From: Ignavibacteria bacterium UBA6906
GTDB lineage: Bacteria > Bacteroidota > Ignavibacteria > UBA10030 > UBA6906
Length of the DNA: 58,458 nucleotides
Assembly (NCBI GenBank): GCA_002451155.1
Contig: DKBG01000127.1
Span: forward strand, 14,924-73,381
Direction of reading: 5' to 3'
The notes below the pieces were generated by a model, which worked only from the letters and a program-made list of their open reading frames with translations, had not been told where the DNA came from and searched no databases. The translations under genes and the position numbers were made by a program. Positions 18,555 to 38,638 of the stretch are shown piece by piece. Positions within the stretch are counted from its first letter, which is position 1, and every line of letters begins with the position of its first letter.

Positions 18555-19637
18555 ATGGCCGACCAACATCCCGACGCCACCACGGCGTCCCAGCAGACAC
18601 CCCCGCCGCCTCGTCCTCAGGAGCAAAAACGCACCCAGCCCCCGGGACGCGGGCAGCACCCGCAGGGCCGCGGGGCCCCGCAACGCCAAGGCCCGCAGCA
18701 GGGCCCTCCGGTGGACATCAGCGTGGTAATCCCATTGTACAACGAAGAAGACTCTCTCCGGGATCTGCATCAACAGCTCCGCGGCGTGCTTGGACGCATG
18801 AACGCCCGGTACGAGGTTCTCTATATAGACGACGGCAGCACCGACCGCTCGTTCCACATTCTACGCGATCTCAAGCGAAATGACCGACGTGTGAAGGTCA
18901 TCAGATTTCGAAGGAATTATGGGAAGTCTGCTGCCCTTTCGGTTGGATTTGAGAAGGCTCAGGGCAATATCGTTTACACGATGGATGCCGACCTGCAGGA
19001 TGACCCGGCGGAGCTTCCGGGGCTTCGTAAGCGTCTGGAGGAGGGCTTTGACCTGGTATCAGGGTGGAAGAAACGTCGCCGGGATCCAATTACAAAGACG
19101 ATTCCGTCCAGGTTTTTCAACTTTATCACCCGCCTGATGACCGGCATCCGAATCCATGACTTCAACTGTGGCTTGAAAGTGTACCGCAGGGAGGTTGTGA
19201 AAACTGTCAAGATATACGGTGAACTCCACCGATACGTTCCGGTCCTTGCGCACTGGGAGGGCTTCCGCATCGGAGAGCAGGTGGTACAGCATCGCCCGCG
19301 ACGGTATGGAAAGAGCAAATTCGGAATCGGCCGTTTCTGGAAGGGGTTTCTTGACCTTCTCACAGCACTTTTCACTACACGGTATCTTCGCAGGCCGCTT
19401 CATCTGTTTGGGTTCTGGGGGATGTGCAGCGCCCTGGCCGGTCTAGGGATTGTTGTATGGCTCTCCGTTGAGAAGATCATGGTGGGAACTGCCCTCAGTA
19501 ATCGGCCTCTCTTCCTGGGCGGGATTCTGCTTCTGATCGTCGGCATCCAATTCATTTCGATCGGACTCCTTGGGGAGATGATCAGCCGCACCCGTACATC
19601 AGACGTAGAATACTCGATCCGGGATTATCTCAAATAA
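18555..19637 (+). CDS. GT2 polyprenyl-phosphate glycosyltransferase (DPM1/GtrB/CsbB-like) with P/Q/G-rich N-terminal extension
   Basis: 360 aa. ISVVIPLYNEEDSL, YIDDGSTD, MDADLQDDP. Two C-terminal TM helices ending in IGLLGEMI. Residues 1-52 are low-complexity (QQTPPPPRPQEQKRTQPPGRGQHPQGRG...). An alternative GTG start lies at 18711. Confidence 0.85.
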   Translation: MADQHPDATTASQQTPPPPRPQEQKRTQPPGRGQHPQGRGAPQRQGPQQGPPVDISVVIPLYNEEDSLRDLHQQLRGVLGRMNARYEVLYIDDGSTDRSFHILRDLKRNDRRVKVIRFRRNYGKSAALSVGFEKAQGNIVYTMDADLQDDPAELPGLRKRLEEGFDLVSGWKKRRRDPITKTIPSRFFNFITRLMTGIRIHDFNCGLKVYRREVVKTVKIYGELHRYVPVLAHWEGFRIGEQVVQHRPRRYGKSKFGIGRFWKGFLDLLTALFTTRYLRRPLHLFGFWGMCSALAGLGIVVWLSVEKIMVGTALSNRPLFLGGILLLIVGIQFISIGLLGEMISRTRTSDVEYSIRDYLK

Positions 19638-19645
19638 GCGACAGG

Positions 19646-20779
19646 GTGACGATGCGAGACGCGAAGCCCTGGGCCAGGGTTGACATTCTTCGTACGGACT
19701 GCCGGTGGTTTCGTGGCGATCTTCCCTGTCGGCCTCACAAGGAATCCGCTGTTCACTGCATCGACGATACGGGGAATGTCTGTTCCTGGTACGACCCCCA
19801 GGCAGGCAATGTTCTCATCATCAAACTCGGCGCGATTGGCGACGTCATCAGGACAACACCGATCGTGCGCCGTCTCCGTTCCAGCCAACCACGGCCGCGG
19901 ATCTGGTGGCTGACACTCACACCCGAGATTATCAGTTCCGTCGTCGACGTCGCTCTTCCGTTCTCACCCCAGAGTCTCGCCACGCTCCACGCGGTCTCAT
20001 TTGACGCCCTCTACAACCTCGACAAGGACAGGGAAGCCTGCGCACTTGCCGCAACGCTTACTGCCCGGGTGAAGAAAGGGTTCACCCTCATCGACGGAAA
20101 GCCCGCTCCCATAGATTCCGACGCGGGACACAAATTCATGACCGGTGTGTTCGACGACCTCAGCCGGGACAACACCAGAAGCTATCCTGCAGAAGTGTTT
20201 GAGATTTGCGGCTTTCCATATCACGGCGAGCGGTACCTCCTGGACGCTCCGGGCGGAATGAACCCTCTGTTCAAAGCCGCGGGGCGCAGACCCGTTGTCG
20301 GACTCAACACGGGATGCGGGGGAAGGTGGGTCACACGCCTTTGGCCGGAGAAGTACTGGATCAGCCTGGCAAAGCGGTTGAAGAGAGCGGGATACGCCGT
20401 GCTCCTGCTCGGCGGAGAACAGGAGCATGCAAAGAATCGGCGCATCGCCAGGCAATCAGGCGCCCGGTATCCCGGTCATTTTCCGCTCAGTCAGTTCATG
20501 AACCTCGTGAACCAGTGCGATCTCGTCGTAACGGCCGTAACGATGGCACTCCATATTGCGATCGGGCTGGAAAAAAGGGTGGTCCTGTTCAATAACATTT
20601 TCAACAGGAATGAATTTGAGCTGTACGGTCTCGGGGAGGTTCTTGAGCCCGAGGGCGAGTGCTCCTGCTACTATGCACCCGTTTGCACGGACCCGCGTCA
20701 TGCACCGAGTGGTTGCATGCATGCCCTGAGCGTGGAAACGGTATTTCGCAGTATCACCCGCCTGCTTCCGAAGTCCTGA
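19646..20779 (+). CDS. GT9-family glycosyltransferase (heptosyltransferase-like) with two 4-Cys clusters
   Basis: 377 aa. VLIIKLGAIGDVIRTTPIVRRL is a typical GT9 N-terminal motif. Cys clusters C-x8-C-x9-C-x7-C (aa 19-46) and C-x-C-x5-C-x9-C (aa 339-357). The track start is GTG 19646; ATG 19652 is an alternative. Confidence 0.8.
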   Translation: MTMRDAKPWARVDILRTDCRWFRGDLPCRPHKESAVHCIDDTGNVCSWYDPQAGNVLIIKLGAIGDVIRTTPIVRRLRSSQPRPRIWWLTLTPEIISSVVDVALPFSPQSLATLHAVSFDALYNLDKDREACALAATLTARVKKGFTLIDGKPAPIDSDAGHKFMTGVFDDLSRDNTRSYPAEVFEICGFPYHGERYLLDAPGGMNPLFKAAGRRPVVGLNTGCGGRWVTRLWPEKYWISLAKRLKRAGYAVLLLGGEQEHAKNRRIARQSGARYPGHFPLSQFMNLVNQCDLVVTAVTMALHIAIGLEKRVVLFNNIFNRNEFELYGLGEVLEPEGECSCYYAPVCTDPRHAPSGCMHALSVETVFRSITRLLPKS

Positions 20780-20791
20780 CTGCTCCCGCGT

Positions 20792-23143
20792 ATGGGCAAG
20801 TCATCCTCTAAAATTCCACCCTCTCACCGACCATCGTCACTGCGGGGCGACGCACCTGCCCACCGTCCTCTTGCGCTCAAGGACTGGCACGTACTCATCT
20901 TCCTCGGCGTTCTGCTGGCAATACTCTTCAGAACGATTCTCGCGGGCACCGCCTTCTTCTGGGAAGATTTCCTGTATCAGAACTATCCATTCAGGAATTT
21001 TGCCGCCACGTCGCTCGCCGCAGGAGATCTTCCCCTCTGGAATCCTTATACGTTTGACGGCATGCCGTTCCTGGCCGATATCCAGACCACGGTGTTCTAC
21101 CTTCCCAGCCTGCTGCTCACCCTGTTTGTCAGCGGCGGGAGGCTGAATTTCTACTGGCTCGAACTGGTCATTATTCTTCATTTCTTTCTGGCCGGAGTGT
21201 CAATGTACTACCTGGCCAGATCCTTTGCCCTGGAACGGATCCCGTCTCTCTTTGCCGGCGCGGCATACATGCTGTCCGGATTCATGGTGGCGCATGCGAT
21301 CCATCAACAAATGGTCGGCGTGGTTGCGTGGGCTCCCCTAATCCTGTTGCTCTTCCGAAAGACGCTTGCTGATCCCCGGGGTATCTGGGTTTTCCTTGGC
21401 GGACTCGTTCTCGGTCACTCTATTCTTGCCGGATTTCCGCAGCTTTCTCTCTACTTCTACACGTTTTTCGCCGCCTTTGTGGTTTTCGAGCTTGTTACAA
21501 CTTATCCGGGGAGGAAGATCATCTCCCCCCGTGCCCTCAGCGCCGCAGGAAGGGTTGCGGCAATCTTTCTGCTCTCTCTAGGCGTCGCAGCACTCCAGCT
21601 CCTGCCCACCATGGAACTGTCCCCGCTCTCGCAGCGCGCCGAGATCACCTACCAGAAAGCGACGGAGGGCTCCCTCGCATGGGAGCAAATCCTGACATTT
21701 CTCTATCCGAAGTTCTTCGGGACATCCACTTCACAGGAATACCGGTACTGGGGGCCGGGGCCGTACTGGCATTACTGGGAGACCTGTGTATATCTCGGGG
21801 CGCTTCCGTTGCTGCTCGGCATCCTTGCGTCCACTTCCTTCCGGCGGAGCAAGTATGTTGTCTTCTTTCTGGGAGCCGCGGTGTTCGCCCTCCTGTTCGC
21901 CCTCGGGGGCAACATGTTCGTTCACCGTCTGTTCTTCTCTTTCGTCCCCGGCTTTTCACTCTTCCGGAACCCGGCCCGGATAGGAATACTTGTGGCGTTC
22001 GCGTTCGCCCTGCTCTCCGCTTTCTCCCTGGACCGTATCCTGTACCGCGAGCAGACTGCCCGGTCCAGAAAGACCCAGCGAACGATCGTCCTCACGATAT
22101 CTGGTGCCGCGCTTCTCGTCTGGTTGTTCGCCACGACCGGCGCTCTAACGAGCATTTTCCCGTTTCTCCGGGATCCCAGAATTCTCGAGACGGTCAGATC
22201 AACGACAGCGGTGGAGATCCTGGTCATCATTCTGTCGGCGGGCCTTGTCACCGCGCTCGTGCTCAACAGGTGGAAGATCACGCTGGCCGGTCCTCTGCTT
22301 CTCATTGTTCTTCTGGCTGACATCACCCAGTTCGGCGGCGGTCAATTTGCTTCGCCTCTCAGTCCTGATGCATACTTCTCCAGGGCAGTGCCCCTCACCT
22401 CATTCCTTCGGCAGGAAGGAAAATCAGAGATTTTTCGCGTCAATACCCGTGCTCCCCGGGGGATGATTCTCGACCGCAACCAGGGGATGGTCGACCGCAT
22501 ATTCATGATGGAGGGATACACGCCTCTGGCGCTCCAGCGAGTGTATCCTCCGATGCGATCAGGGGACCAGATGCTCGACCTTCTCAACATCAAGTACAAG
22601 ACGGTGGTCGACGACGCCGGGTCCGCCCGGCTCGTTCCTCATCCCACGTACCTCCCGCGGGCATTTTTTGTATACGACATATGCGTTGTGCAATCCGAGG
22701 CCGAGCTCCGCGACACCCTGCAAAGCCCTACGTTCAACCACCGGACGACAGCAGTTCTCGAACAGATTCCTCTGTTCCGACCAGCGGTTCCAGCGGATCC
22801 CCCAAAATGGTCCGCTACAATCACGGGCTATTCAAACACCCTGATCACACTTGATGTCACGACCAGTGTGCCAGGGCTCCTCATGCTGAGCGAGACATAT
22901 TATCCTGGATGGCGTGCCTATGTCGACGGTGATCAAACGGATATCTACCGAACGGATTACAGCCTGCGAAGTCTGTGTGTCCCGGCAGGATCTCATCGGA
23001 TCGAGGTACGCTTCCAACCGGAATCCTTTTTTCACGGGGTTCTCATAAGCATCACCACGTGTCTTCTCTGCGCAGCAGGTATTGGTCTTTCACTCTTTCG
23101 TTCACTTCGACTCCACAACAGCGGGCAGGAGAAACTTTCCTGA
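20792..23143 (+). CDS. YfhO-family polytopic membrane protein (GT-C-type glycosyltransferase candidate), copy 1
   Basis: 783 aa, more than 12 TM helices. N-terminal FWEDFLYQNYPFRNF...LPLWNPYTFDGMPFLAD. C-terminal soluble domain with YYPGWRAYVDGDQTDIYRTDYSLRSLCVPAGSHRIEVRF. Confidence 0.78.
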   Translation: MGKSSSKIPPSHRPSSLRGDAPAHRPLALKDWHVLIFLGVLLAILFRTILAGTAFFWEDFLYQNYPFRNFAATSLAAGDLPLWNPYTFDGMPFLADIQTTVFYLPSLLLTLFVSGGRLNFYWLELVIILHFFLAGVSMYYLARSFALERIPSLFAGAAYMLSGFMVAHAIHQQMVGVVAWAPLILLLFRKTLADPRGIWVFLGGLVLGHSILAGFPQLSLYFYTFFAAFVVFELVTTYPGRKIISPRALSAAGRVAAIFLLSLGVAALQLLPTMELSPLSQRAEITYQKATEGSLAWEQILTFLYPKFFGTSTSQEYRYWGPGPYWHYWETCVYLGALPLLLGILASTSFRRSKYVVFFLGAAVFALLFALGGNMFVHRLFFSFVPGFSLFRNPARIGILVAFAFALLSAFSLDRILYREQTARSRKTQRTIVLTISGAALLVWLFATTGALTSIFPFLRDPRILETVRSTTAVEILVIILSAGLVTALVLNRWKITLAGPLLLIVLLADITQFGGGQFASPLSPDAYFSRAVPLTSFLRQEGKSEIFRVNTRAPRGMILDRNQGMVDRIFMMEGYTPLALQRVYPPMRSGDQMLDLLNIKYKTVVDDAGSARLVPHPTYLPRAFFVYDICVVQSEAELRDTLQSPTFNHRTTAVLEQIPLFRPAVPADPPKWSATITGYSNTLITLDVTTSVPGLLMLSETYYPGWRAYVDGDQTDIYRTDYSLRSLCVPAGSHRIEVRFQPESFFHGVLISITTCLLCAAGIGLSLFRSLRLHNSGQEKLS

Positions 23144-23148
23144 ACACC

Positions 23149-24123
23149 ATGTATTCAATCGTCATCCCCATTTTCAATGAGGAGCGGATTCTCAGGGAGC
23201 TCCGGCGTCGCGTGCAGGAAGCGATTGCCTCCCTTGATGCCCCTGTCGAAATCATCCTGGTGGACGATGGGAGCACTGATGATTCGTTTCCTATCATGAA
23301 GGAGATTCACCGGCTGGACAGGCGTTTCAAGGCATTGCGTCTTTCCAGGAATTTCGGCCACCAGGTGGCACTATCCGCCGGCCTCGACGTGACCCGCGGG
23401 GACGCGGTTTTCCTTATGGATGGGGATCTTCAGGACCCGCCGGAGCTTATGGCGACGATGCTCCGCCACTGGAAGGACGGATACCAGGTCGTGTACACCG
23501 TCAAGCGGAGCAGGAAGGAAAACCCTGTCAAACGCCTCGCGTTTCGCGCATTCTATCGGGTTCTCCATGCCCTGTCGACAGTCCGGATTCCCATGGAGGC
23601 CGGCAATTTTTCACTGCTGGATCGAACGGTCGTTGACGTCCTGAAGTCAATGCCGGAACGAAACCGCTTCATCAGCGGGATGCGAGCATGGGCGGGCTTC
23701 CGTCAGATCGGGGTTGAATATGATCGTGACGCACGGTTCGCCGGCAAGGCACAAATGTCACTCAGCCGCCTTGTGGATCTGGCACTGGATGGCATCTTCT
23801 CTTTCTCAAAGGCCCCGTTGCGCATGGCGGTCTACATCGGACTCGCATCCGCTCTCGTTTCATTTCTCGGTGGCACCTATGTGCTGTACGAGAAGCTTTT
23901 TACTGACCGGGCCATCCTGGGTTGGGCCTCAACGATTATTTCCATCACGTTTCTCGGCGGCCTGATTCTCATGACACTGGGGATTGTCGGAGAGTACATC
24001 GGGCGCATCTACGACGAGGTCAAACGTCGTCCGCTCTACATTATCCAGGAAATCGTCGGGCTACCGGCCACCTCGCCCGTCCGGAAGGTGCGGAGACGAT
24101 CTTCCAGATCAGTCCCACGATGA
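23149..24123 (+). CDS. GT2 polyprenyl-phosphate glycosyltransferase (GtrB/ArnC/CsbB-like), copy 2
   Basis: The start is set at ATG 23149 (MYSIVIPIFNEE...). VDDGSTDDS, MDGDLQDPP. Two C-terminal TM helices and the GEYIGRIYDEVKRRPLYII tail typical of GtrB/ArnC. The track ORF from 22975 overlaps the upstream gene. Confidence 0.88.
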   Translation: MYSIVIPIFNEERILRELRRRVQEAIASLDAPVEIILVDDGSTDDSFPIMKEIHRLDRRFKALRLSRNFGHQVALSAGLDVTRGDAVFLMDGDLQDPPELMATMLRHWKDGYQVVYTVKRSRKENPVKRLAFRAFYRVLHALSTVRIPMEAGNFSLLDRTVVDVLKSMPERNRFISGMRAWAGFRQIGVEYDRDARFAGKAQMSLSRLVDLALDGIFSFSKAPLRMAVYIGLASALVSFLGGTYVLYEKLFTDRAILGWASTIISITFLGGLILMTLGIVGEYIGRIYDEVKRRPLYIIQEIVGLPATSPVRKVRRRSSRSVPR

Positions 24124-27086: not shown

Positions 27087-27088
27087 CA

Positions 27089-31349: not shown

Positions 31350-31391
31350 GTGTTCGTCCCACGTCATTCAACACCACCGGCAAGGACACAT

Positions 31392-32651: not shown

Positions 32652-32774
32652 CGGCGGCGCACGTTGGCCACGGTCTGCACATCTCGATTCCAATGATTGG
32701 TCTTCCGTTATTCCGGCACCACCATCCGTCTCGTTCCCCGGGCTCACCCCATTCCGGCTGATGAAACTGGCTCC

Positions 32775-33908
32775 ATGAATACAACCCGGCGCATTCTTCT
32801 TGGTCAGCTTTCAAGTAACGGCGACTGCCTATACGCCACCGCAATTGCCCGGCAGATCAAATCGGACTTCCCGGGCTGTCACCTTACCTGGGCTATCGGC
32901 TCGGCCTACCGTCAGGTCATCGACGAGAACCCTTTCGTCGACGATGTCTGGGAAATACTCATCCCTTCCCGCCATGAAGCGGAGCACGCCTGGCGCATAT
33001 TCGCACGGGAGGCCCGGGAGAAAAAGCGCAACGGAGAGTTTGACGAGATCTTCCTGACCCAGATCAATCCTGACAATTACGGCAACTTTGACGGGACTGT
33101 TCGGGCGTCAATCTTTCGCGGATATCCTCGTCCGGTGACGGTGCCGGTTACTCCCGTTGTGCGCCTCACGCCGGCTGAAACAGCACATGTCCGGCATGTT
33201 GTAACATCAGTCGGGTTCGACCGTTATCCACACCGTGTCCTTTTTGAGTGCGCATCGGCAAGCAGCCAGTCGTTTGTTACGCCTGAGTTCGCCCAGCAGA
33301 CCGCACAGCTCGTCGTGAACCGACTTGGCAACGCGGCGTTCATTCTCTCATCCAACCTGCCAATTGGTTCGTCCGACCCCAGGATTGTCGATGGCAGCAC
33401 GCTCTCGTTTCGAGAGAATGCCGAACTGACGAAGTACTGCACCCTGTTTATCGGCTGCTCAAGCGGAATCACCTGGATCGCGACATCGGACTGGGCCATG
33501 CGCCTTCCCATGATCCAACTCCTGAAGCGAGAGACTTTTGTGTTCGCATCGGTGCTCCATGATGCAGAACATTTCGGACTTCCCACCGAACACATCCTGG
33601 AGATGACCGACTGTACGCCGGCCCATCTTGCTGATTGCATAGTGGCAGTGTTGAACGAATCATTCGCTTCCGCCCGCGCACGCTTTCACGAACAGATCCC
33701 CGTGCGGCTCGATTTCTATTTCAAACGTTTCATCCGGAGCCAACTGATCGCACGACACTTCAGGGCCGTCCTCGGGTCCTTCCGGTGCGTGGTTCAGCGG
33801 TATGGTCTCCGTCCCTTTTGGCTCTTTTTGCTCACCATTCTCTCATTCGGCGCTCTTCCACGTCCTGTTGGCCGAGCGGGGCCATCCGGATCCGGCAATA
33901 AACGATGA
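32775..33908 (+). CDS. GT9-like (GT-B fold) protein, divergent
   Basis: The start is set at ATG 32775 (MNTTRRILLGQLSSNGDCLYATAIARQIKSDFPGCHLTW). The N-terminal Rossmann motif and length resemble heptosyltransferase-like proteins. Assignment is weak. Confidence 0.5.
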   Translation: MNTTRRILLGQLSSNGDCLYATAIARQIKSDFPGCHLTWAIGSAYRQVIDENPFVDDVWEILIPSRHEAEHAWRIFAREAREKKRNGEFDEIFLTQINPDNYGNFDGTVRASIFRGYPRPVTVPVTPVVRLTPAETAHVRHVVTSVGFDRYPHRVLFECASASSQSFVTPEFAQQTAQLVVNRLGNAAFILSSNLPIGSSDPRIVDGSTLSFRENAELTKYCTLFIGCSSGITWIATSDWAMRLPMIQLLKRETFVFASVLHDAEHFGLPTEHILEMTDCTPAHLADCIVAVLNESFASARARFHEQIPVRLDFYFKRFIRSQLIARHFRAVLGSFRCVVQRYGLRPFWLFLLTILSFGALPRPVGRAGPSGSGNKR

Positions 33909-34897
33909 ACGCTCAAGGTCAACCCACATCCGAGTCGGCAGCGCCAGCAATTCCACGGCTTGCGGTCATCCTCGTCAACTTTGGCCGGGTTCGCGACACC
34001 GTCGATTGCGTCAGGTCACTTGAGGCAAGCTCCTACAGAGACTTCGAGGTTATTGTGGTGGACAACGCGTCGACTACACCCTCGTTCGCCGCGCTGCAGG
34101 CAGAATGTCCGAGAGCACGGATTGTACCCTCATCCATCAATGCTGGATTTGCGGAGGGGAACAATATTGCCCTCCGGTTGGCGCTCGAGAAGGGTTGTCA
34201 GTACCTTCTCCTGCTGAATAATGATACCCTGGTGGATTCCAGGGCGCTGTCTGCGCTCATAGACACACTGGAGAGGGATCGCACCATTGGTGTGACGGGG
34301 GGAAAAATCGTTTACGCTGCAACGCCGGCAGTGCTCTGGTACGCAGGGGGAATTCTCTCACCCGGGCGCGGCTTGGCGCGTCACCGCGGGATGGGCGAAC
34401 CGGACAGGGGCCAGTATGACCATCCAGGCGAAACGCCGTATGTCACGGGATGCTGCATGATGTTGCGGCGGGAAGTCTGCGAGACGATCGGCTTGCTCGA
34501 CCGTGGCTTCTTTGCATATTTTGAAGACGCGGATTATTGCCTCCGCGCGCACAATGCCGGCTTTCGCGTTTGGTATGAACCCCGCGCGCTGATTTATCAC
34601 AGCATCTCCGCCACGGCGGGATGGGACAGTCCGGTGTATCTCTACCTGAATCTCCGGAACAAGCTGCTTTTCATTCGGAAGCACACATCGGTCTTTTCCG
34701 CCCTGCTCCACGCTCCGCTTCTGGGCTGGTTTTACATCCGGCAATTTCTCCGCCTTTTTCTCAAATGGCGTGACATTGCCGGTTTGCGCGCGGCCTGGTG
34801 GGGAATGCAGGACGGGCTCAGAGGCAACTCAGGAGAGGATGGGTCGGGTAGGCTTTCTTCGCTCGACGTACATACGCGATCACGCCGCCGAACGTGA
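33905..34897 (+). CDS. GT2-family glycosyltransferase (WcaA / rhamnosyltransferase-like), paralog B
   Basis: LAVILVNFGRVRDTVDCVRSL...VVDNAS, LLNNDT, YFEDADYCLRAHNAGFRVWYEP. Clearly paralogous to 26247-27086. ATGA overlap with the upstream stop. Confidence 0.85.
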   Translation: MNAQGQPTSESAAPAIPRLAVILVNFGRVRDTVDCVRSLEASSYRDFEVIVVDNASTTPSFAALQAECPRARIVPSSINAGFAEGNNIALRLALEKGCQYLLLLNNDTLVDSRALSALIDTLERDRTIGVTGGKIVYAATPAVLWYAGGILSPGRGLARHRGMGEPDRGQYDHPGETPYVTGCCMMLRREVCETIGLLDRGFFAYFEDADYCLRAHNAGFRVWYEPRALIYHSISATAGWDSPVYLYLNLRNKLLFIRKHTSVFSALLHAPLLGWFYIRQFLRLFLKWRDIAGLRAAWWGMQDGLRGNSGEDGSGRLSSLDVHTRSRRRT

Positions 34898-34907
34898 GAG
34901 ATCACAC

Positions 34908-36044
34908 GTGAAGATCACCTTTTACAATGCTGCTTGGGCCACGATGGGCGGGGGAGAAAAATATCTCGCCGCGATGGCGGATGTGGCCGCGCAATCCGGA
35001 AATCACACGGTTACACTTCTTGTCGACAGCCCATCCCTCACCCTGGACCTTCTGCGCACTCGGTTCGGGCTCGGCTTGAGAGGAGTGGGTTTTCAGCGGA
35101 TCGATCGGCGTCATGTCCGCAATGCTCTCCGGAAAGCCGACCTTGCATGCATTGTCTCCAATGTTCTTCCTTTCGGCCATCCGGCTCCCGCCACGGTATA
35201 TGTGATGCAGGTTCCTCATCGACACGTCGCTCCTGCCTCAATTCTTGCGATGGTTCCTCGGATGGAGATCCACGAGGCAGCAAAGAGTCTAAGTCGTTTT
35301 GTTCTGCTGAGGGATGCACGCCGATCCAACGCCGTGCTCGTGTATTCCCAGTTTGCCGCCAATGTCCTTGAGCGCGAGCACAGCATCCGGGCGACGGTCC
35401 TGTACCCTCCTATCGACGATTTCGCCCCGGCGCCACCACTGCAGAAGCAGAAGATTATTCTCAGTGTTGGACGGATCTTCCGGGGACTGTACAACGACAA
35501 GCGTTACGACATCCTTCTCGACGGGTTCCGCCAGCTGTTTGCGCTGCCGGGTATGGGGGAATGGGAATACTGGATTGCCGGTGCCTGTGCGACGGATCAT
35601 GAGTCACAAAGCTACCTGCACGAACTCCGGAGACAGGCCGCAGGTCTCCCGGTTCGCTTTCTGGTAAACGTATCCCACCAGGAGCTTCGCGATTGCTATG
35701 CGCGGGCGTCTCTCTTCTGGCACGGCGCGGGGTACGGGGTGGATGAAACTCAGCACCCCGACCGGACCGAGCACTTCGGCATGTCGACCGTCGAGTCGAT
35801 GTCTGCCTTTTGCATCCCGCTTGTTGTCGCAAAGGGAGGGCAGAAAGAGATTGTATCTGATGGAGAATCCGGATACCTTTGGAACACGCTCGATGAACTG
35901 GTGCATCGCACTGTTGCACTAGCCAGCGATCCGTCCCGTCTTGTCGGTCTCCGCGAGGGTGCGCGCGTTCGTTACACAGCGTTTTCGCGTTCCGTATTTG
36001 AGGAATCTGTCCGCACCTTTCTCGACTCCATACGCAGATTCTGA
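34908..36044 (+). CDS. GT4-family glycosyltransferase
   Basis: The start is set at GTG 34908 (VKITFYNAAWATMGGGEKY), 10 nt after the upstream stop. The C-terminal half has EHFGMSTVESMSAFCIPLV, the GT4 E-x7-E region. Confidence 0.83.
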   Translation: MKITFYNAAWATMGGGEKYLAAMADVAAQSGNHTVTLLVDSPSLTLDLLRTRFGLGLRGVGFQRIDRRHVRNALRKADLACIVSNVLPFGHPAPATVYVMQVPHRHVAPASILAMVPRMEIHEAAKSLSRFVLLRDARRSNAVLVYSQFAANVLEREHSIRATVLYPPIDDFAPAPPLQKQKIILSVGRIFRGLYNDKRYDILLDGFRQLFALPGMGEWEYWIAGACATDHESQSYLHELRRQAAGLPVRFLVNVSHQELRDCYARASLFWHGAGYGVDETQHPDRTEHFGMSTVESMSAFCIPLVVAKGGQKEIVSDGESGYLWNTLDELVHRTVALASDPSRLVGLREGARVRYTAFSRSVFEESVRTFLDSIRRF

Positions 36045-36112
36045 GACCGGGGGACAGTCCATCACCAGACTATAAACATACTCCGTCTTCCTTCACCGCC
36101 ACTTCCGCCACG

Positions 36113-38638
36113 ATGACAAAAACCAGCAAGCAGCAACGCAGGTCGGCTTCGGCTCCCGCGACAGTTCTCGATTCTTTCTCACCCACGGTCCGCGACCTGC
36201 TTTCCATCGCACTTCTCTATCTTCTCGCATTCGTCGTCTTCCGGGAGGTTATTCTCAACGACATGGCTTTTTCCTCTCAGGGAGACACCATCGCAGCCAT
36301 CACCTACGGGCATGCGGGCACGGTGCTCCAGGAGAAAGAAGGACGGGATGTCTTGTGGATGCCGTTTTTCTTCAGCGGGATGCCGACATTCGGAAATCTG
36401 GCTTTCCTCCCGCACGACGTGAACTACATCCAACGCATCCTCACCAAGATTCTCATGCTGATTTTCCTCAATGGGACATGGACGTGGTTTGTTGGCTACT
36501 ATTTCATCGGGGGGGTGTTCATGTTTCTTCTGCTGCGCCACCTCGAGTTCTTGAGACCGATTGCCCTCTTTGGCGCGATTACCTTTATGCTGAGCCCGTA
36601 TGCTGTCGGACTTGCGGGCGAGGGTCACGGATCAAAACTCATGGCCCTCGTGTATCTTCCTCTACTCTTTCTCCTGGCGCATACCCTCTTTCGCCGGCGA
36701 GATGCCTTGAGCACGGGCCTTGTTGCCGCAGCGCTGGGCACGCTTCTTCTGACCAACCATCTCCAAATCGTCTATTACGAACTCGGGCTTCTCACACTCT
36801 ATTTGATCTACTATGTCATCACGGAAGCGCGGCAGGGTCTCAGGGCTGTCTCCGGAGGAACGCTCCTCTTTCTCGCAGCTCTTATCCTGGGATTCTGCAT
36901 CTCTTCCTACGTCTATCTCTCCGTCCAGGAGTATGCTCAGTATTCCATTCGAGGCGGAGGAACCCAGGGATCGACCGGGGGCCTCACCTGGGATTACGCA
37001 ACGAACTGGTCCTGGCATCCCGGAGAGCTCATTACTCTTCTACTCCCGGGGTTCTACGGCATGCAGGCATCCTTATACTGGGGCCCGGTGCTTCCATGGA
37101 CCAATTCTTCGGTCTACATCGGGCTCCTGCCTCTCTTCTTTTCCATTCTCGCGCTGTTGTACCGCCGGAACTCAATGACGATCTTCCTTGCCGTTGTGAG
37201 CGTCATTGTCCTTCTTGTTTCGCTGGGAAGGAACTTCGCGCCACTCTACGAATTGCTCTTTGTGACGCTCCCGTTTTTTAACAAATTCCGAGCGCCTTCA
37301 ATGATCCTGCATCTGCTCCCTTTCCTCCTTGGAATCCTGGGAGCGTACGGCCTCGCCTTTCTCCTGAACGCCCAGGAGCAGCTGAAAGAGGAGCAACGAC
37401 AGAAGCTACTGAAGATATTCCTGATGGCGACCTGGGGCATGCTCGCGTTGCTTGGATGTGCCATTATTCTGAAAGGATGGCTTTTTGATTCACTTTCGGG
37501 GACCATGTTTCTCAGGGAGGGTGAGGCGGCACAGTATCGGCAGCAGTTCGGGCAGCAGGCGGCACGCGCAATTTCGCAGGTCAAGCAGATGCGCTTCGAC
37601 GTGTTCTGGAAGGACCTGACACGGTTTGCCGCCCTTGGCTCGATCGCGATGGGCGGGACATGGATGTTCCTCCGCCGATCGTTGCGTGTCAACCTCTACG
37701 CTGCAGGCGTCGTCATCTTTGTGATTGTCGATCTCTGGAGCGTGTCCGCGAAATACATCACGCCCGTTCCCGACAAGGATATCGAGGGATCCCTTCGCCC
37801 GAGTGCGACCATACTCTATCTGAAGGAACAGAAGGGGCTCTTCCGGATCTTTCCCGTCGGTCAGACCTTTATGGACAACAGCTACGCCTACCACGGGCTT
37901 CAATCCATCGGAGGATACAGTCCGGCAAAACTCAAAATCTATCAGACGATGCTCGATTCCTGCCTGGAACGAGGGGGAACGGGAATTCTCCCATGGAATC
38001 TCAACGTCCTCAATATGCTCAACGTTGAGTATCTTGTGGTACCGGGACTTCTTCCTGAGACTTCTCCATTCAAGCAGGTCAACGTCGATCAGACGCAACG
38101 GCTTATTACGTACATGAACCCTGCTGCGCTCCCTCGTGCCTGGTACGTTGGAGACATTACCGTGGCGGGTTCTGACCACGAGGTGTTTCAGAAATTGAAC
38201 GCGCCCGATTTCGATCCCGCCAGGACCGCCATCTGCGCCATCCGCCCCGCAGCGCCGGTGGAGACACCTGACAGTGGGTCGTTACCCGTCATCACCCAGT
38301 ACGAATCAGGCCGCATCGCCCTTCATTCCGACACGAAGGTCCCGACGCTTCTTGTCCTGAGTGAAATTTACTATCCCGCAGGATGGAAGGCTTTTGTTGA
38401 TGGCGAGGAGACGGAAATTCTTCGTACCAACTATGTCCTCCGTTCTATTCCTGTTCCGGCCGGCAATCATGAAATCGAGTTCAGGTTCGAACCCGAAACG
38501 TACCGGATCGGATGGATCCTGAGCAACGCAGCGTGGGGAGTGACTGCCCTGCTGGTTCTCTTTGGTGCATGGAGGCTTCCGTCCGTCCGCAGCCGATTCT
38601 CCCGGTCAGGATCGTCGTCTTCCCCCACGGAGAGTTGA
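36113..38638 (+). CDS. YfhO-family polytopic membrane protein (GT-C-type glycosyltransferase candidate), copy 2
   Basis: 841 aa, many TM helices. C-terminal domain with YYPAGWKAFVDGEETEILRTNYVLRSIPVPAGNHEIEFRF, paralleling copy 1. Confidence 0.78.
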   Translation: MTKTSKQQRRSASAPATVLDSFSPTVRDLLSIALLYLLAFVVFREVILNDMAFSSQGDTIAAITYGHAGTVLQEKEGRDVLWMPFFFSGMPTFGNLAFLPHDVNYIQRILTKILMLIFLNGTWTWFVGYYFIGGVFMFLLLRHLEFLRPIALFGAITFMLSPYAVGLAGEGHGSKLMALVYLPLLFLLAHTLFRRRDALSTGLVAAALGTLLLTNHLQIVYYELGLLTLYLIYYVITEARQGLRAVSGGTLLFLAALILGFCISSYVYLSVQEYAQYSIRGGGTQGSTGGLTWDYATNWSWHPGELITLLLPGFYGMQASLYWGPVLPWTNSSVYIGLLPLFFSILALLYRRNSMTIFLAVVSVIVLLVSLGRNFAPLYELLFVTLPFFNKFRAPSMILHLLPFLLGILGAYGLAFLLNAQEQLKEEQRQKLLKIFLMATWGMLALLGCAIILKGWLFDSLSGTMFLREGEAAQYRQQFGQQAARAISQVKQMRFDVFWKDLTRFAALGSIAMGGTWMFLRRSLRVNLYAAGVVIFVIVDLWSVSAKYITPVPDKDIEGSLRPSATILYLKEQKGLFRIFPVGQTFMDNSYAYHGLQSIGGYSPAKLKIYQTMLDSCLERGGTGILPWNLNVLNMLNVEYLVVPGLLPETSPFKQVNVDQTQRLITYMNPAALPRAWYVGDITVAGSDHEVFQKLNAPDFDPARTAICAIRPAAPVETPDSGSLPVITQYESGRIALHSDTKVPTLLVLSEIYYPAGWKAFVDGEETEILRTNYVLRSIPVPAGNHEIEFRFEPETYRIGWILSNAAWGVTALLVLFGAWRLPSVRSRFSRSGSSSSPTES

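What the first reader, a model, noticed from the sequence alone, without database searches (positions are those of the whole stretch)
18555..38638. 20-kb glycosylation island with two YfhO-type GT-C proteins paired with GtrB/CsbB-like GT2s, in a diderm background
Sixteen co-directional genes, with gaps from -4 to 165 nt, look like two parallel enzyme sets.
- GT2s with a C-terminal TM hairpin and a GEYIGRIY-type tail: 18555 and 23149.
- GT9-like proteins: 19646 and 32775.
- 783- and 841-aa polytopic proteins ending in YYP(A)GW(R/K)A(Y/F)VDG: 20792 and 36113.
- Clearly paralogous WcaA-type GT2s: 26247 and 33905.
- GT4s: 24120 and 34908.
- Also two tandem MOP flippases and three methyltransferases.

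I see no Wzy polymerase, Wzz, WaaL-type ligase, ABC exporter or initiating phosphoglycosyltransferase in the island.

GT2 plus YfhO pairs are experimentally linked to extracytoplasmic glycosylation of teichoic acids in Firmicutes. This window otherwise encodes diderm functions (LptE, an OMP barrel). The acceptor here is therefore unknown; it could be LPS, lipoprotein or protein, or glycolipid. This is the best candidate in the window for an undescribed periplasmic glycosylation pathway.
Basis: partly seen in the sequence, partly recalled or inferred. Interest (0 to 1): 0.72.

Follow-up and report, generated by a model that had tools for sequence, protein, structure and literature searches.

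The report
Conserved two-YfhO periplasmic glycosylation locus
This 20-kb stretch is an inherited gene cluster of an uncultured Ignavibacteria-like bacterium that most likely builds sugar chains on a membrane lipid and attaches them outside the cytoplasm, and one of its two large transferases belongs to the same group as the enzyme recently predicted, but not shown, to be the missing protein-glycosylating enzyme of Bacteroidota.

Summary
Both large membrane proteins pass the Pfam YfhO threshold. Both model as GT-C glycosyltransferases; the best structural matches are ArnT, Emb/AftD, STT3/PglB/AglB and PMT, with no Wzy or WaaL. The GT2s at 18555 and 23149 are full-length ArnC/GtrB/PgfS-type polyprenyl-phosphate sugar synthases.

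It is not an island. GC is flat, there is no tRNA, and the ksgA-to-pdxJ gene order recurs in about 50 related MAGs. Only YfhO1 sits beside ArnC-like GT2s (43 of 46 loci). YfhO2 does not.

The two "parallel sets" are mostly not paralogues; only the GT2s at 26247 and 33905 are clearly paralogous.

YfhO2 groups (300 of 300 bootstraps) with the YfhO of classical Bacteroidota. A July 2026 preprint predicts that protein to be the undiscovered O-oligosaccharyltransferase.

My favoured reading is a lipid-phosphate-linked periplasmic glycosylation pathway that resembles the archaeal Agl pathway. Protein is the most likely acceptor (about 0.4), with LPS core close behind (about 0.3). I rate it a new variant of a known kind, of moderate to high interest.

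The parts
18555..19637 (+). GT2a: ArnC/GtrB-type polyprenyl-phosphate sugar synthase. Residues 1-52 are a Pro/Gln/Gly-rich extension, and the true start may be the GTG at 18711.
   Evidence: PF00535 E 3e-33. Full-length match to solved ArnC (9hwj, E 8.5e-51, residues 51-350) and GtrB (5eke, E 7e-44). C-terminal TM segments. It is 71-79% identical in relatives and lies within 3.5 kb upstream of YfhO1 in 43 of 46 loci. Sequence and start codons.
19646..20779 (+). GT9a: GT9-family (heptosyltransferase-like) cytoplasmic glycosyltransferase
   Evidence: PF01075 E 1.2e-13. WaaF 1psw E 1.2e-5. Below all NCBIfam equivalog cut-offs. Present between GT2a and YfhO1 in 37 of 46 loci.
20792..23143 (+). YfhO1: 783-aa YfhO-family GT-C transferase with a periplasmic beta domain and a terminal TM helix
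   Evidence: PF09586 51.4 bits, C-terminal region only. AF2 pLDDT 84, pTM 0.87. The top 27 Foldseek hits are all GT-C, led by ArnT at E 4e-5. D59 in the first periplasmic loop is invariant. Hundreds of homologues exist.
23149..24123 (+). GT2b: PgfS/ArnC-type polyprenyl-phosphate sugar synthase; accessory in the lineage
   Evidence: NCBIfam PgfS 261 bits, E 1.5e-77; ArnC E 1.4e-46. 30% identical to GT2a. Directly downstream of YfhO1 in 26 of 49 loci.
24120..25244 (+). GT4a: GT4 (GT-B) cytoplasmic glycosyltransferase; part of the conserved core
   Evidence: PF13692 and PF00534, E ~1e-22. 52-66% identical in relatives. A 39% homologue lies next to yfhO in a Prevotellaceae genome.
25375..26205 (+). 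MT1: class I SAM-dependent methyltransferase
   Evidence: Methyltransf_23/11, E 1e-15 to 1e-13. Related methyltransferases form the largest class of variable genes in relatives: a cluster of 32 ORFs, two of them Pfam-confirmed.
26247..27086 (+). GT2c: soluble GT2, with a rhamnosyltransferase-subfamily-like match; part of the conserved core
   Evidence: PF00535 E 9e-22. TIGR01556 E 1.8e-18. Paralogue of GT2d (42% identity).
27089..28399 (+). MOP1: Wzx/MOP-family lipid-linked glycan flippase; part of the conserved core
   Evidence: MurJ E 1.5e-5 and MOP flippase E 1.2e-6. hhalign 97.7% against PF01943-positive Wzx ORFs. Nine or more TM segments.
28396..29793 (+). MOP2: second Wzx/MOP-family flippase. 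The ORF opens at 28354; the ATG at 28396 gives a -4 overlap.
   Evidence: No Pfam hit. WZX_like E 1e-5. hhalign 94.3% over 358 columns against Wzx ORFs. About 12 TM segments.
29959..30885 (+). MT2: conserved protein, possibly an FkbM-type methyltransferase
   Evidence: Only a faint PF05050 hit (E 0.0065). 51-70% identical in relatives.
30909..31349 (+). DUF4254 protein
   Evidence: PF14063 E 1.9e-8. Travels with the C-methyltransferase and GT9b in relatives.
31350..32651 (+). NDP-sugar C-methyltransferase
   Evidence: Methyltransf_14 E 2.9e-49 and Methyltransf_13 E 1.9e-15. 68-76% identical in relatives. Often next to a GDP-mannose 4,6-dehydratase there.
32775..33908 (+). GT9b: divergent protein with a GT9-like N-terminus
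   Evidence: No Pfam hit. TIGR02193 N-terminal E 4.5e-8. Not similar to GT9a apart from a 33-aa motif.
33905..34897 (+). GT2d: soluble GT2, paralogue of GT2c
   Evidence: PF00535 E 2.4e-17. TIGR01556 E 1.8e-20. 42% identical to GT2c.
34908..36044 (+). GT4b: GT4 glycosyltransferase; the usual upstream neighbour of YfhO2
   Evidence: PF00534 E 9e-16. Sits directly upstream of YfhO2 in many relatives. No detectable similarity to GT4a.
36113..38638 (+). YfhO2: 841-aa YfhO-family GT-C transferase, in the same clade as the YfhO of classical Bacteroidota
   Evidence: PF09586 35.5 bits. AF2 pLDDT 80. Foldseek: ArnT E 4.8e-7, then AftD, STT3, PglB and AglB. Homologous to YfhO1 over 722 columns. Groups with the YfhO of Sphingobacterium, Gillisia, Alistipes and Prevotellaceae in 300 of 300 bootstraps. 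D58 is invariant.
38760..39740 (+). g17: conserved unknown protein with an N-terminal TM helix and a periplasmic domain; usual downstream neighbour of YfhO2
   Evidence: No family hit. One TM segment. Downstream of YfhO2 in 28 of 35 informative loci.
17554..18513 (-). Left boundary, not part of the pathway: ksgA/rsmA, with a PAP2-family gene (16579-17535) behind it
   Evidence: PF00398 E 8e-58; PAP2_3 E 5.5e-18. Conserved upstream and divergent in relatives.
39939..40649 (+). Right boundary, not part of the pathway: pdxJ
   Evidence: PF03740 E 7e-97. Downstream of YfhO2 in 29 of 35 loci.

Best explanation
This is a vertically inherited envelope-glycosylation locus of an uncultured Ignavibacteria-like member of the Bacteroidota. 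It uses lipid-phosphate-linked sugars and GT-C transferases on the periplasmic face of the inner membrane.

Shown here:
- Two ArnC/GtrB/PgfS-type GT2s, which as a class load a sugar from a nucleotide donor onto undecaprenyl phosphate.
- Two Wzx/MOP-type flippases.
- Two YfhO-family proteins with a GT-C fold and a conserved Asp in the first periplasmic loop.
- Soluble GT9, GT4 and GT2 transferases and methyltransferases.
- No phosphoglycosyl transferase, Wzy, Wzz or WaaL.

Inferred pathway, modelled on the Haloferax Agl pathway (AglJ + AglG/I/E + AglP + flippase + AglB, then AglD + AglR + AglS):
1. GT2a puts the first sugar on Und-P and so acts as the initiating enzyme. This would explain why no phosphoglycosyl transferase is needed.
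2. GT9a, GT4a and GT2c extend the glycan, and the methyltransferases modify it.
3. MOP1 flips the lipid-linked glycan.
4. YfhO2 transfers it to the acceptor.
5. YfhO1, with GT2b (or GT2a) and MOP2, adds a further single sugar or second glycan in the periplasm.

Favoured acceptor: Ser/Thr of periplasmic and outer-membrane proteins, making this the Ignavibacteria-lineage version of the Bacteroidota general O-glycosylation system. The generic lipid-P-sugar/GT-C mechanism is likely (about 0.8). The protein acceptor and the Agl-like order of steps are much less certain. The confidence figure below is for the statement including the protein acceptor.
For: Enzymes:
- GT2a matches solved ArnC (E 8.5e-51), GtrB (E 7e-44) and DPMS. 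GT2b matches PgfS, the partner of the YfhO-type protein glycosyltransferase PgfM1, at 261 bits.
- Both YfhO proteins model confidently as GT-C, and their structural hits are only lipid-P(P)-sugar-dependent enzymes.
- D59/D58 and about 30 other positions are conserved across both subfamilies and the classical Bacteroidota YfhO.
- Both flippases are Wzx-type.

Conservation of the locus:
- The core order GT2a-GT9a-YfhO1-(GT2b)-GT4a-(MT)-GT2c-MOP1...GT4b-YfhO2-g17-pdxJ recurs in about 50 MAGs.
- Genomes lacking YfhO1 keep GT2a, GT4a and YfhO2 in one locus, three of the five also with GT9a (L131, L133, L134, L150, L154).
- GT2a homologues of 51-58% identity lie within 10 kb of YfhO1- or YfhO2-type genes in MAGs labelled KSB1, Cytophagia, Fibrobacteres and Eisenbacteria.

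Link to Bacteroidota protein glycosylation:
- YfhO2 groups with the classical Bacteroidota YfhO in 300 of 300 bootstraps. That protein is predicted, not shown, to be the phylum-wide O-OTase and is reported essential (bioRxiv 10.64898/2026.07.27.740950).
- YfhO enzymes O-glycosylate proteins in streptococci (PMC12041528).
- Bacteroidota O-glycans are often methylated. Their OTase, ligase and core-glycan enzymes are undiscovered, and a two-step model (core plus outer glycan) is proposed (PMC12871550).
- The distal half of the locus is variable in relatives, carrying methyltransferases, Gmd, UDP-GlcNAc 2-epimerase, GT4s and extra Wzx genes. This resembles the species-specific outer-glycan loci.

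Precedents:
- The Agl pathway (PMC3871713).
- MOP/MATE flippases acting on Und-P-sugars (PMC11127046, PMC8035078).
Against: - No acceptor was tested and none can be read from the sequence.
- GT9 is a family whose characterised members act almost exclusively on the LPS inner core. One GT9 gene sits between GT2a and YfhO1.
- The YfhO-as-OTase idea is itself only an in-silico prediction. YfhO is absent from Porphyromonas gingivalis, which does O-glycosylate proteins.
- The locus lacks the metG-wzx organisation of Bacteroides LFG loci. The O-glycosylation-flippase model of NCBIfam matches MOP1 at only 17.8 bits.
- Whether Ignavibacteria have the D(S/T)(A/I/L/V/M/T) glycosylation system at all is unknown.
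- En-bloc transfer from a monophosphate-linked oligosaccharide has no bacterial precedent that I know of. The alternative, YfhO enzymes adding only single sugars, is the demonstrated activity of the family.
- The pairing of each GT2 and flippase with each YfhO is inferred from gene order only.
Confidence: 0.4

Rival explanations
1. LPS/LOS core and lipid A glycosylation locus. GT9a, GT4a and GT2c build the inner and outer core on lipid A-Kdo in the cytoplasm. The YfhO enzymes, fed by GT2a and GT2b through Und-P-sugars, then add sugars to lipid A or core in the periplasm, as ArnC/ArnT, LgmA/LgmB, FlmF/FlmK or RgtE/RgtA-D do. The Wzx genes flip an O-unit or the Und-P-sugar donors.
For: - Two GT9-like genes, one with PF01075 and a WaaF structure match.
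- The best structural match of both YfhO proteins is ArnT, and GT2a's best match is ArnC.
- The locus is a lineage-wide housekeeping-type feature, as LPS core loci usually are.
- A PAP2-family gene with a weak LpxE match lies two genes upstream.
- The variable distal region resembles O-antigen loci.
Against: - No WaaL, Kdo transferase, Lpx or Lpt gene is in or beside the cluster.
- GT9a scores far below every heptosyltransferase equivalog cut-off (51.7 against 185 bits).
- The PAP2 protein matches an inositol-phosphoceramide synthase model slightly better than LpxE, and both matches are weak.
- YfhO1-like proteins occur in Chloroflexota and CPR MAGs, groups not generally known to make LPS (my own knowledge).
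- No YfhO-family enzyme has been linked to LPS.
Confidence: 0.3
2. Classical three-component decoration systems. Each YfhO adds one side-branch sugar from a Und-P-sugar to a polysaccharide, capsule or EPS, or glycolipid whose backbone is initiated and polymerised by genes elsewhere. The cytoplasmic GTs, methyltransferases and Wzx of the locus make that backbone's repeat unit.
For: - This is the only activity demonstrated for YfhO/GT2 pairs on non-protein acceptors: LTA and WTA (PMC5836110, PMC8035078).
- Gtr-type and GT136 systems do this on O-antigens in diderms (PMC11127046).
- A yfhO gene, a Und-P mannosyltransferase and gtrA lie in an EPS cluster of the diderm Pontiella (PMC7356697).
- The Wzx genes and many GTs look like a repeat-unit locus.
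Against: - No Wzy, Wzz, phosphoglycosyl transferase or export (Wza/ABC) genes were found in the window cluster or among the ten representative variable genes of relatives that were scanned.
- No GtrA-type flippase is present.
- The strict lineage-wide conservation of the proximal half, and the reported essentiality of the YfhO2-type gene in Bacteroidales, are unusual for a decorative side branch.
Confidence: 0.2
3. A horizontally acquired glycosylation island, as the title implies, specific to this genome.
For: It is a large block of co-directional sugar-related genes. Such blocks are often mobile in other bacteria.
Against: - GC stays at 0.55-0.59 across the whole window.
- There is no tRNA in the window.
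- The same flanks (PAP2, ksgA on the left; g17, pdxJ on the right) and the same gene order occur in dozens of MAGs at 45-79% protein identity.
Confidence: 0.02

Closest known systems
CsbB/YfhO and GtlA/GtlB multi-component teichoic-acid glycosylation systems of Firmicutes (PMC5836110, PMC8035078)
   Same: A membrane-anchored GT2 Und-P-sugar synthase lies next to a YfhO-family GT-C protein. The C-terminal YYPGW.A.VDG-type region is shared (PF09586 gathering score passed).
   Different: - The host is a diderm without teichoic acids.
- The TM domain is too diverged for the Pfam or PgfM models to align; only the last ~80 residues match.
- There is no GtrA/GtcA flippase; two Wzx/MOP proteins are present instead.
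- The genes are embedded with GT9, GT4, GT2 and methyltransferase genes in a 20-kb conserved locus.
Streptococcal protein O-glycosylation by PgfS/PgfM1 and GtrB/PgtC2 (PMC12041528)
   Same: The GT-C is a YfhO-family protein. GT2b's best family match is PgfS (261 bits). Glycosylation is extracytoplasmic and uses a Und-P-sugar.
   Different: - Both YfhO proteins score far below the PgfM1/PgfM2 equivalog cut-offs (33 and 26 bits against 1400).
- The streptococcal enzymes add single HexNAc or Glc residues to Ser/Thr-rich disordered regions.
- No epimerase or adhesin genes are present here.
Bacteroidota general O-glycosylation (LFG loci; OTase and ligase undiscovered; yfhO predicted as OTase in bioRxiv 10.64898/2026.07.27.740950; review PMC12871550)
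   Same: - YfhO2 is in the same clade as the YfhO of Sphingobacterium, Gillisia, Alistipes, Prevotellaceae and Chitinophagaceae.
- The locus has Wzx, many GTs and methyltransferases, with a conserved part and a variable part. This echoes the core-plus-outer-glycan model.
   Different: - In Bacteroidales, yfhO is not linked to the LFG locus. Here it closes a single cluster that also holds Und-P-sugar synthases and a second YfhO paralogue.
- There is no metG-wzx start.
- The glycosylation system has not been shown in Ignavibacteria.
- The OTase role of YfhO is untested.
ArnC/ArnT (and LgmA/LgmB, FlmF/FlmK, RgtE/RgtA-D) lipid A and core modification in Proteobacteria
   Same: The logic is the same: an ArnC-type GT2 makes a Und-P-sugar and a GT-C enzyme transfers it in the periplasm. 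ArnT is the best structural match and ArnC the best sequence match.
   Different: - There is no Pfam PMT/ArnT-family membership.
- There are no Ara4N (ArnA/B/D) or deacetylase genes and no ArnE/F flippase.
- GT2a scores 197 bits against the ArnC cut-off of 529.
Haloferax volcanii Agl N-glycosylation pathway (PMC3871713)
   Same: The parts lists match closely: two Dol-P/Und-P sugar synthase GT2s (AglJ, AglD), soluble GTs, a methyltransferase (AglP), Wzx-like flippase(s) (AglR/Agl15), two GT-C enzymes (AglB, AglS), and no phosphoglycosyl transferase. All are in one cluster.
   Different: - The domain of life differs.
- AglB is an STT3-type OST and AglS a different GT-C family.
- Agl glycosylation is N-linked; an N-linkage is not suggested here.
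- This is a resemblance of function, not of family.
Gtr (GtrA/GtrB/Gtr*) and GT136 three-component O-antigen side-chain systems (PMC11127046)
   Same: A lipid-P-sugar synthase, a flippase and a GT-C act in a diderm periplasm. A MATE/MOP-type flippase for a Und-P-sugar has precedent.
   Different: Those systems are small accessory modules, often phage-borne, that decorate a Wzy- or ABC-made polymer. This one is a chromosomal, lineage-wide locus without a polymerase.

Membership tests
YfhO family (Pfam PF09586) | Score at or above the Pfam gathering threshold | tested here: met
   51.4 bits (20792) and 35.5 bits (36113) against a cut-off of 28.5. All listed homologues carry precomputed PF09586.
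YfhO family (Pfam PF09586) | Homology over the whole polytopic domain, not only the C-terminus | tested here: inconclusive
   Only HMM positions ~756-835 of 835 align, and the PgfM1/PgfM2 models also match only the C-terminus. An Enterococcus YfhO-type protein aligns to YfhO1 residues 7-759 in summed BLAST pieces (126 bits), but the best piece covers 71 aa.
YfhO family / GT-C superfamily | GT-C fold: 11-13 TM helices, a first periplasmic loop with juxtamembrane helices and a conserved acidic residue | tested here: met
   AF2 models have pLDDT 84 and 80. Foldseek top hits are ArnT, Emb, AftD, STT3, PglB, AglB and PMT. D59/D58 is conserved in 31 of 32 sequences.
YfhO family / GT-C superfamily | Transfer of sugar from a polyprenyl-phosphate donor to an extracytoplasmic acceptor | not testable with these tools
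   Needs biochemistry or genetics.
Three-component transmembrane glycosylation system (GtrB/CsbB + flippase + GT-C) | Membrane-anchored GT2 polyprenyl-phosphate sugar synthase encoded next to the GT-C | tested here: met
   This holds for YfhO1: GT2a lies one gene upstream and GT2b directly downstream, and a GT2 lies within 3.5 kb upstream in 43 of 46 related loci. It does not hold for YfhO2 (2 of 42).
Three-component transmembrane glycosylation system (GtrB/CsbB + flippase + GT-C) | Small GtrA/GtcA-type (or SMR-type) flippase | tested here: not met
   No such domain is present in the 17 genes or the overlapping ORFs. Two Wzx/MOP proteins are present instead, which has precedent (GacK, the GT136 MATE).
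Wzx/Wzy-dependent O-antigen or capsule pathway | Initiating phosphoglycosyl transferase (WbaP/WecA type), Wzy polymerase, Wzz, and WaaL or export machinery | tested here: not met
   Only Wzx-type proteins were found. There are no PF02397, PF00953, Wzy_C or Wzz hits in the cluster, in the overlapping ORFs or in ten representative variable genes of relatives. The rest of the source genome could not be searched.
Bacteroidota general O-glycosylation machinery | YfhO of the type conserved in classical Bacteroidota (the predicted OTase) | tested here: met
   YfhO2 aligns over its full length at 25-29% identity (E 1e-48 to 1e-73) and forms one clade with these proteins in 300 of 300 NJ bootstraps. 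YfhO1 does not.
Bacteroidota general O-glycosylation machinery | LFG-type locus organisation (metG, wzx, variable GTs, two conserved terminal GTs) | tested here: not met
   The flanks are ksgA and pdxJ. The NCBIfam O-glycosylation Wzx model matches MOP1 at 17.8 bits against a cut-off of 720.
Bacteroidota general O-glycosylation machinery | Glycans on the D(S/T)(A/I/L/V/M/T) motif of exported proteins | not testable with these tools
   Requires glycoproteomics of a cultured relative.
ArnC/ArnT lipid A modification | ArnC equivalog, ArnT (PMT-family) transferase and Ara4N synthesis genes | tested here: not met
   GT2a scores 197 bits against the cut-off of 529. The YfhO proteins have no PMT or PMT_2 Pfam hit. 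No ArnA/B/D genes are in the window.
LPS heptosyltransferases (GT9: WaaC/WaaF/WaaQ) | GT9 domain and equivalog-level score | tested here: inconclusive
   19646 passes the PF01075 gathering score (51.5 against 22) but fails the TIGR02193/02195 cut-offs (51.7 against 185; 41.9 against 135). 32775 has no Pfam hit.

The most novel reading that the evidence does not exclude
The locus is a complete, self-contained pathway for Bacteroidota-type protein O-glycosylation that needs no phosphoglycosyl transferase.
- GT2a, GT9a and GT4a build the phylum-conserved reducing-end core (hexose, deoxyhexose, hexuronic acid) directly on undecaprenyl monophosphate, as archaea do on dolichyl phosphate.
- MOP1 flips it.
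- YfhO2 is the long-sought O-oligosaccharyltransferase.
- YfhO1 is the equally unknown 'ligase' or branch transferase that adds the outer, methylated glycan.

If so, this lineage shows in one operon-like cluster the components that are scattered and unidentified in Bacteroides.
Probability: 0.15. Interest if true: 0.85.

Novelty: new variant of a known kind. Interest (0 to 1): 0.58.

Why it matters
The transferase, the ligase and the core-glycan enzymes of the general O-glycosylation system of Bacteroidota have been missing for more than 15 years (PMC12871550). A 2026 preprint proposes YfhO on indirect grounds only. In Bacteroidales that gene stands apart from the glycan-synthesis locus.

In this lineage a YfhO of the same clade is physically linked to the following, in an order kept across dozens of genomes:
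- Und-P-sugar synthases,
- Wzx flippases,
- GT9, GT4 and GT2 transferases,
- methyltransferases,
- a second YfhO paralogue.

This gives independent genomic-context support that diderm YfhO proteins finish a lipid-linked glycan pathway. It also names concrete candidate partners (GT2a, GT9a, GT4a, MOP1) whose orthologues can be tested in culturable Bacteroidota.

If the acceptor turns out to be LPS, the locus would be the first YfhO-type LPS modification system. Either way, no diderm YfhO has been characterised experimentally.

Tried and rejected
- **Island tests.** The composition profile and tRNA scan gave no sign of a mobile island.
- **Promoter and terminator scan.** The sigma-70 promoter and terminator scan of 20500-40400 found nothing above the shuffled expectation. 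Bacteroidota promoters are not covered by it, so it is uninformative about operon structure.
- **Sequence search for a solved YfhO structure.** The search of the PDB with the YfhO1 profile found no solved relative, so fold comparison was needed.
- **Overlooked genes.** Ten long overlapping or antisense ORFs had no Pfam hit. I treat them as high-GC artefacts.
- **MOP2 as a hidden Wzy or ligase.** It has no Pfam hit, but hhalign aligns it over 358 columns to Wzx proteins, so I rejected this idea.
- **sahH/luxS adjacency.** I tried to confirm that the YfhO2-like genes of Bacteroidales are the sahH/luxS-adjacent yfhO of the preprint. The five loci examined had other neighbours (IspD, GT4, polyprenyl synthetase, gyrB, RNase HII). 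The preprint's supplement is not held. Identity with 'the' yfhO therefore rests on clade membership and PF09586.
- **Phylogeny runs.** A first phylogeny script timed out. A first NJ run with a saturated Firmicute outgroup gave unstable support. Only the unrooted analysis without the outgroup is used.
- **Not done.**
  - No search of the source genome outside the window for WaaL, Wzy or an initiating transferase.
  - No test of motif enrichment in exported proteins, because there are too few proteins in one window.

Full report

Yes. With the ninth gene starting at the ATG at 28396, the gaps run from -4 to 165 nt. A 17th co-directional gene (38760-39740) belongs to the same conserved block.

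Family scans give the following assignments:

| Start | Assignment | Key evidence |
|---|---|---|
| 18555 | GT2a, ArnC/GtrB-type GT2 | PF00535; C-terminal TM segments |
| 19646 | GT9a | PF01075, E 1.2e-13 |
| 20792 | YfhO1, 783 aa | PF09586, 51.4 bits (cut-off 28.5) |
| 23149 | GT2b, PgfS/ArnC-type GT2 | PF00535; C-terminal TM segments |
| 24120 | GT4a | GT4 domains |
| 25375 | Methyltransferase | Class I SAM-dependent |
| 26247 | GT2c, soluble GT2 | PF00535 |
| 27089 | Wzx/MOP flippase | Weak MurJ/MOP hits; hhalign 97.7% |
| 28396 | Wzx/MOP flippase | hhalign 94.3% |
| 29959 | Possible FkbM-type methyltransferase | Faint hit, E 0.0065 |
| 30909 | DUF4254 | PF14063 |
| 31350 | NDP-sugar C-methyltransferase | Methyltransf_14, E 2.9e-49 |
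| 32775 | Weakly GT9-like protein | No Pfam hit |
| 33905 | GT2d, soluble GT2 | PF00535 |
| 34908 | GT4b | GT4 domains |
| 36113 | YfhO2, 841 aa | PF09586, 35.5 bits (cut-off 28.5) |

None of the 17 genes hits a phosphoglycosyl transferase, Wzy, Wzz, WaaL or ABC exporter. Ten long overlapping ORFs have no Pfam hit.

Several details are weaker than stated:
- The Pfam YfhO match covers only the last ~80 residues of each protein.
- GT9a and the protein at 32775 share only a 33-residue motif.
- The two GT4s are not detectably similar.
- Only the GT2s at 26247 and 33905 are clear paralogues (42% identity, E 2e-64).
- I could not verify LptE or an OMP barrel in the window.

**2. What are the large membrane proteins?**

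YfhO1 and YfhO2 are homologous over their whole length. BLASTP gives 27% identity and E 2e-50. Profile-profile comparison gives probability 100%, E 4e-77, over 722 columns.

AlphaFold2 models built on 30- and 28-sequence alignments are confident (pLDDT 84 and 80; pTM 0.87 and 0.81). Each shows about 13 TM helices, a periplasmic beta-rich domain and one terminal TM helix.

Foldseek against the PDB returns only GT-C enzymes at the top:
- YfhO1: ArnT (E 4e-5), then EmbB/C, AftD, STT3, AglB and Pmt4.
- YfhO2: ArnT (E 4.8e-7), then AftD, STT3, AftA, PglB and AglB.

No O-antigen ligase or polymerase appears in either list.

An Asp in the first periplasmic loop (D59 in YfhO1, D58 in YfhO2) is conserved in 31 of 32 diverse sequences, along with about 30 other positions. 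This is where GT-C enzymes carry their catalytic acidic residue (established knowledge of the superfamily).

**3. What are the GT2s?**

GT2a aligns over residues 51-350 with solved ArnC (E 8.5e-51) and GtrB (E 7e-44), and over its catalytic domain (residues 53-173) with dolichyl-phosphate mannose synthase. GT2b's best match is PgfS, the streptococcal partner of the YfhO-type protein glycosyltransferase PgfM1 (261 bits). Both are below the equivalog cut-offs, so the sugar cannot be named. The reaction class is clear: a nucleotide sugar plus polyprenyl phosphate gives a polyprenyl-phosphate sugar.

**4. Is it an island?**

No. GC is 0.55-0.59 throughout the window and the window has no tRNA. All close homologues come from Ignavibacteria-like Bacteroidota MAGs. 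tBLASTn of the window's proteins against about 170 fetched loci shows one recurring order:

PAP2 <- ksgA <- | -> GT2a - GT9a - YfhO1 - (GT2b) - GT4a - (MT) - GT2c - MOP1 - variable genes - GT4b - YfhO2 - g17 - pdxJ

Counts for YfhO1 orthologues of at least 40% identity:
- An ArnC-like GT2 lies within 3.5 kb upstream in 43 of 46 informative loci.
- GT9a lies within 3.5 kb upstream in 37 of 46.
- A GT2 lies directly downstream in 26 of 49, and GT4a does so in 17 of 49.

Counts for YfhO2 orthologues:
- An ArnC-like GT2 lies within 3.5 kb upstream in only 2 of 42.
- g17 follows in 28 of 35 and pdxJ in 29 of 35.

The middle of the locus varies between genomes. It carries many methyltransferases, GDP-mannose 4,6-dehydratase, UDP-GlcNAc 2-epimerase, extra GT4s and extra Wzx genes. 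In four of the loci surveyed (L010, L014, L019, L022) it also carries a 634-aa polytopic protein, which has no Pfam hit.

Genomes that lack YfhO1 keep GT2a, GT4a and YfhO2 in one locus (L131, L133, L134, L150, L154). GT9a is also present in L133, L134 and L154, while in L150 GT2a itself was not detected. GT2a homologues of 51-58% identity lie within 10 kb of YfhO1- or YfhO2-type genes in MAGs labelled KSB1, Cytophagia, Fibrobacteres and Eisenbacteria. In Glassbacteria, Gemmatimonadales and one MAG labelled as an archaeon, a more distant GT2 sits directly upstream of the YfhO1-type gene.

The picture of two neat parallel sets does not hold, however.

**5. Two YfhO subfamilies**

A degenerate DNA pattern for G-W-[KR]-A-[FY]-[VIM]-D-G retrieved 120 loci. 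They include cultured or classical Bacteroidota (Sphingobacterium, Gillisia, Tenacibaculum, Alistipes, Prevotellaceae, Chitinophagaceae) and Firmicutes.

The classical Bacteroidota proteins (806-859 aa) align over their full length with YfhO2 at 25-29% identity (E 1e-48 to 1e-73). Against YfhO1 the E-values are only 1e-25 to 1e-35.

In a neighbour-joining analysis of 749 columns, the following split was recovered in 300 of 300 bootstraps:
- YfhO2 family plus classical Bacteroidota YfhO;
- YfhO1 family plus YfhO1-like proteins of CPR, deltaproteobacterial and other MAGs.

Firmicute YfhO proteins match mainly in the C-terminal ~70-120 residues.

**6. What the literature adds**

- YfhO with CsbB glycosylates LTA or WTA in Bacillus, Staphylococcus and Listeria (PMC5836110; PMC8035078).
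- YfhO-family PgtC2 and PgfM1, with GtrB and PgfS, O-glycosylate Ser/Thr-rich regions of membrane-associated proteins in streptococci (PMC12041528).
- GT2 plus flippase plus GT-C systems are well known in diderms, and a MATE/MOP-type flippase for a Und-P-sugar has precedent (PMC11127046).
- A yfhO gene, a Und-P mannosyltransferase and gtrA have been drawn in an EPS cluster of the diderm Pontiella (PMC7356697).
- In the general O-glycosylation system of Bacteroidota, the OTase, the ligase for the outer glycan, and the enzymes and flippase for the conserved core (hexose, deoxyhexose, hexuronic acid) are still undiscovered. The glycans are commonly methylated (PMC12871550; PMC8729774).
- A July 2026 preprint predicts in silico that the yfhO gene (PF09586) of Bacteroidota is that OTase. 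Its arguments are PMT-like HHpred hits, phylum-wide presence, essentiality and many TM segments. It notes the gene's absence from *P. gingivalis*. Its genome set was RefSeq Bacteroidota in seven orders, which does not include this lineage.

**7. Most likely mechanism**

Shown: the enzyme classes and their conserved linkage. Inferred: the order of steps and the acceptor.

The parts list matches the Haloferax Agl pathway closely (PMC3871713). That pathway has a GT2 that puts the first sugar on the lipid monophosphate (AglJ), soluble GTs (AglG/I/E), a methyltransferase (AglP), a flippase and a GT-C transferase (AglB). It then has a second GT2 (AglD), a Wzx-like protein (AglR) and a second GT-C (AglS) that adds a last sugar outside the cell.

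Read this way, GT2a is the initiating enzyme, which explains the missing phosphoglycosyl transferase. The proposed steps are:
1. GT9a, GT4a and GT2c extend the glycan.
2. The methyltransferases modify it.
3. MOP1 flips it.
4. YfhO2 transfers it.
5. YfhO1, with GT2b or GT2a and MOP2, adds a further sugar or glycan.

The more conservative alternative is that both YfhO enzymes add only single sugars, which is the demonstrated activity of the family.

My estimates for the acceptor are:
- proteins, about 0.4;
- LPS/LOS core or lipid A, about 0.3 (GT9 genes, best structural match ArnT, housekeeping-like conservation);
- another polysaccharide or glycolipid, about 0.2.

**8. Novelty and score**

The kind of system is known: lipid-phosphate sugar synthase, flippase and GT-C transferase. 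YfhO proteins are already annotated in these phyla. What is new is the variant:
- two deeply diverged diderm YfhO subfamilies in one lineage-wide locus;
- joined to GT9, GT4, GT2, methyltransferase and Wzx genes;
- without a phosphoglycosyl transferase, polymerase or ligase;
- with one subfamily in the clade of the predicted Bacteroidota OTase.

No diderm YfhO has been characterised. The organisms are uncultured, which limits direct testing, but the candidate partners have orthologues that can be tested elsewhere. I score interest at 0.58.

Noticed in passing
window 18555-18710: GT2a carries a 52-residue Pro/Gln/Gly-rich N-terminal extension before the usual GT2 start (VDISVVIPLYNEE). A GTG at 18711 would give a typical start and a 197-nt divergent intergenic region with ksgA instead of 41 nt. 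tBLASTn matches in relatives begin about 300 nt or more after the ksgA match, compared with 41 nt here.
   Followed up: partly
window 16579-17535 (-): A PAP2_3/PAP2_C membrane protein is conserved two genes upstream of the cluster. Its weak best matches are a phosphoinositol dihydroceramide synthase (E 1.3e-4) and the lipid A 1-phosphatase LpxE (E 3e-3). It could be a sphingolipid head-group enzyme, a lipid A phosphatase or a Und-PP phosphatase.
   Followed up: partly
window 44269-45741 (-): A 490-aa membrane GT2 of the processive synthase type (CelA catalytic domain E 1.8e-33, PgaC E 1.2e-29) lies outside the cluster. It suggests a separate exopolysaccharide synthase.
   Followed up: no
window 2848-4977 (+) and 5183-8561: A fused CcoN-CcoO (COX1 + FixO in one 709-aa protein) is followed by FixP, FixG and DsbD_2-type genes, and preceded at 246-2672 by a metal-transporting P-type ATPase. 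Together these form a cbb3 oxidase cluster.
   Followed up: no
L019:13708-15612 (also L010, L014, L022): Four of the surveyed relatives carry a 634-671-aa protein between GT2b (or YfhO1) and GT4a. In the L019 copy I found about 10 N-terminal TM segments by hydropathy scan, what looks by eye like a soluble TPR-like C-terminal region, and no Pfam hit. It could be a further GT-C, polymerase or ligase-like enzyme. It is absent from the window.
   Followed up: partly
window 38760-39740 (+): A conserved 326-aa protein with one N-terminal TM helix and no family match always sits between YfhO2 and pdxJ (28 of 35 loci). It may be an accessory or acceptor-binding partner of YfhO2.
   Followed up: partly
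L228:2645-3670 and L229:2437-3141, 5573-6745: In classical Bacteroidales the YfhO2-type gene lies next to isoprenoid genes: a polyprenyl synthetase in Alistipes and IspD in a Prevotellaceae genome. In the Prevotellaceae genome it also lies next to a GT4 that is 39% identical to GT4a of this window.
   Followed up: partly
L185:2058-6999 and L273: Some distant MAGs carry two YfhO1-like genes within one 8-kb locus: in tandem in L185, on opposite strands in L273.
   Followed up: no
L013:15493-18750: A 1085-aa FG-GAP/Ig-domain protein with a type IX secretion C-terminal sorting domain lies inside the variable part of a relative's cluster. This shows that the lineage has T9SS cargo.
   Followed up: no
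window 53416-54549 (-): A 377-aa protein with a weak porin-like match (LbtU family, E 4e-4) lies next to a ZnuABC-type transporter. It is the only candidate outer-membrane protein I could find. No LptE was recognised by Pfam or NCBIfam.
   Followed up: partly
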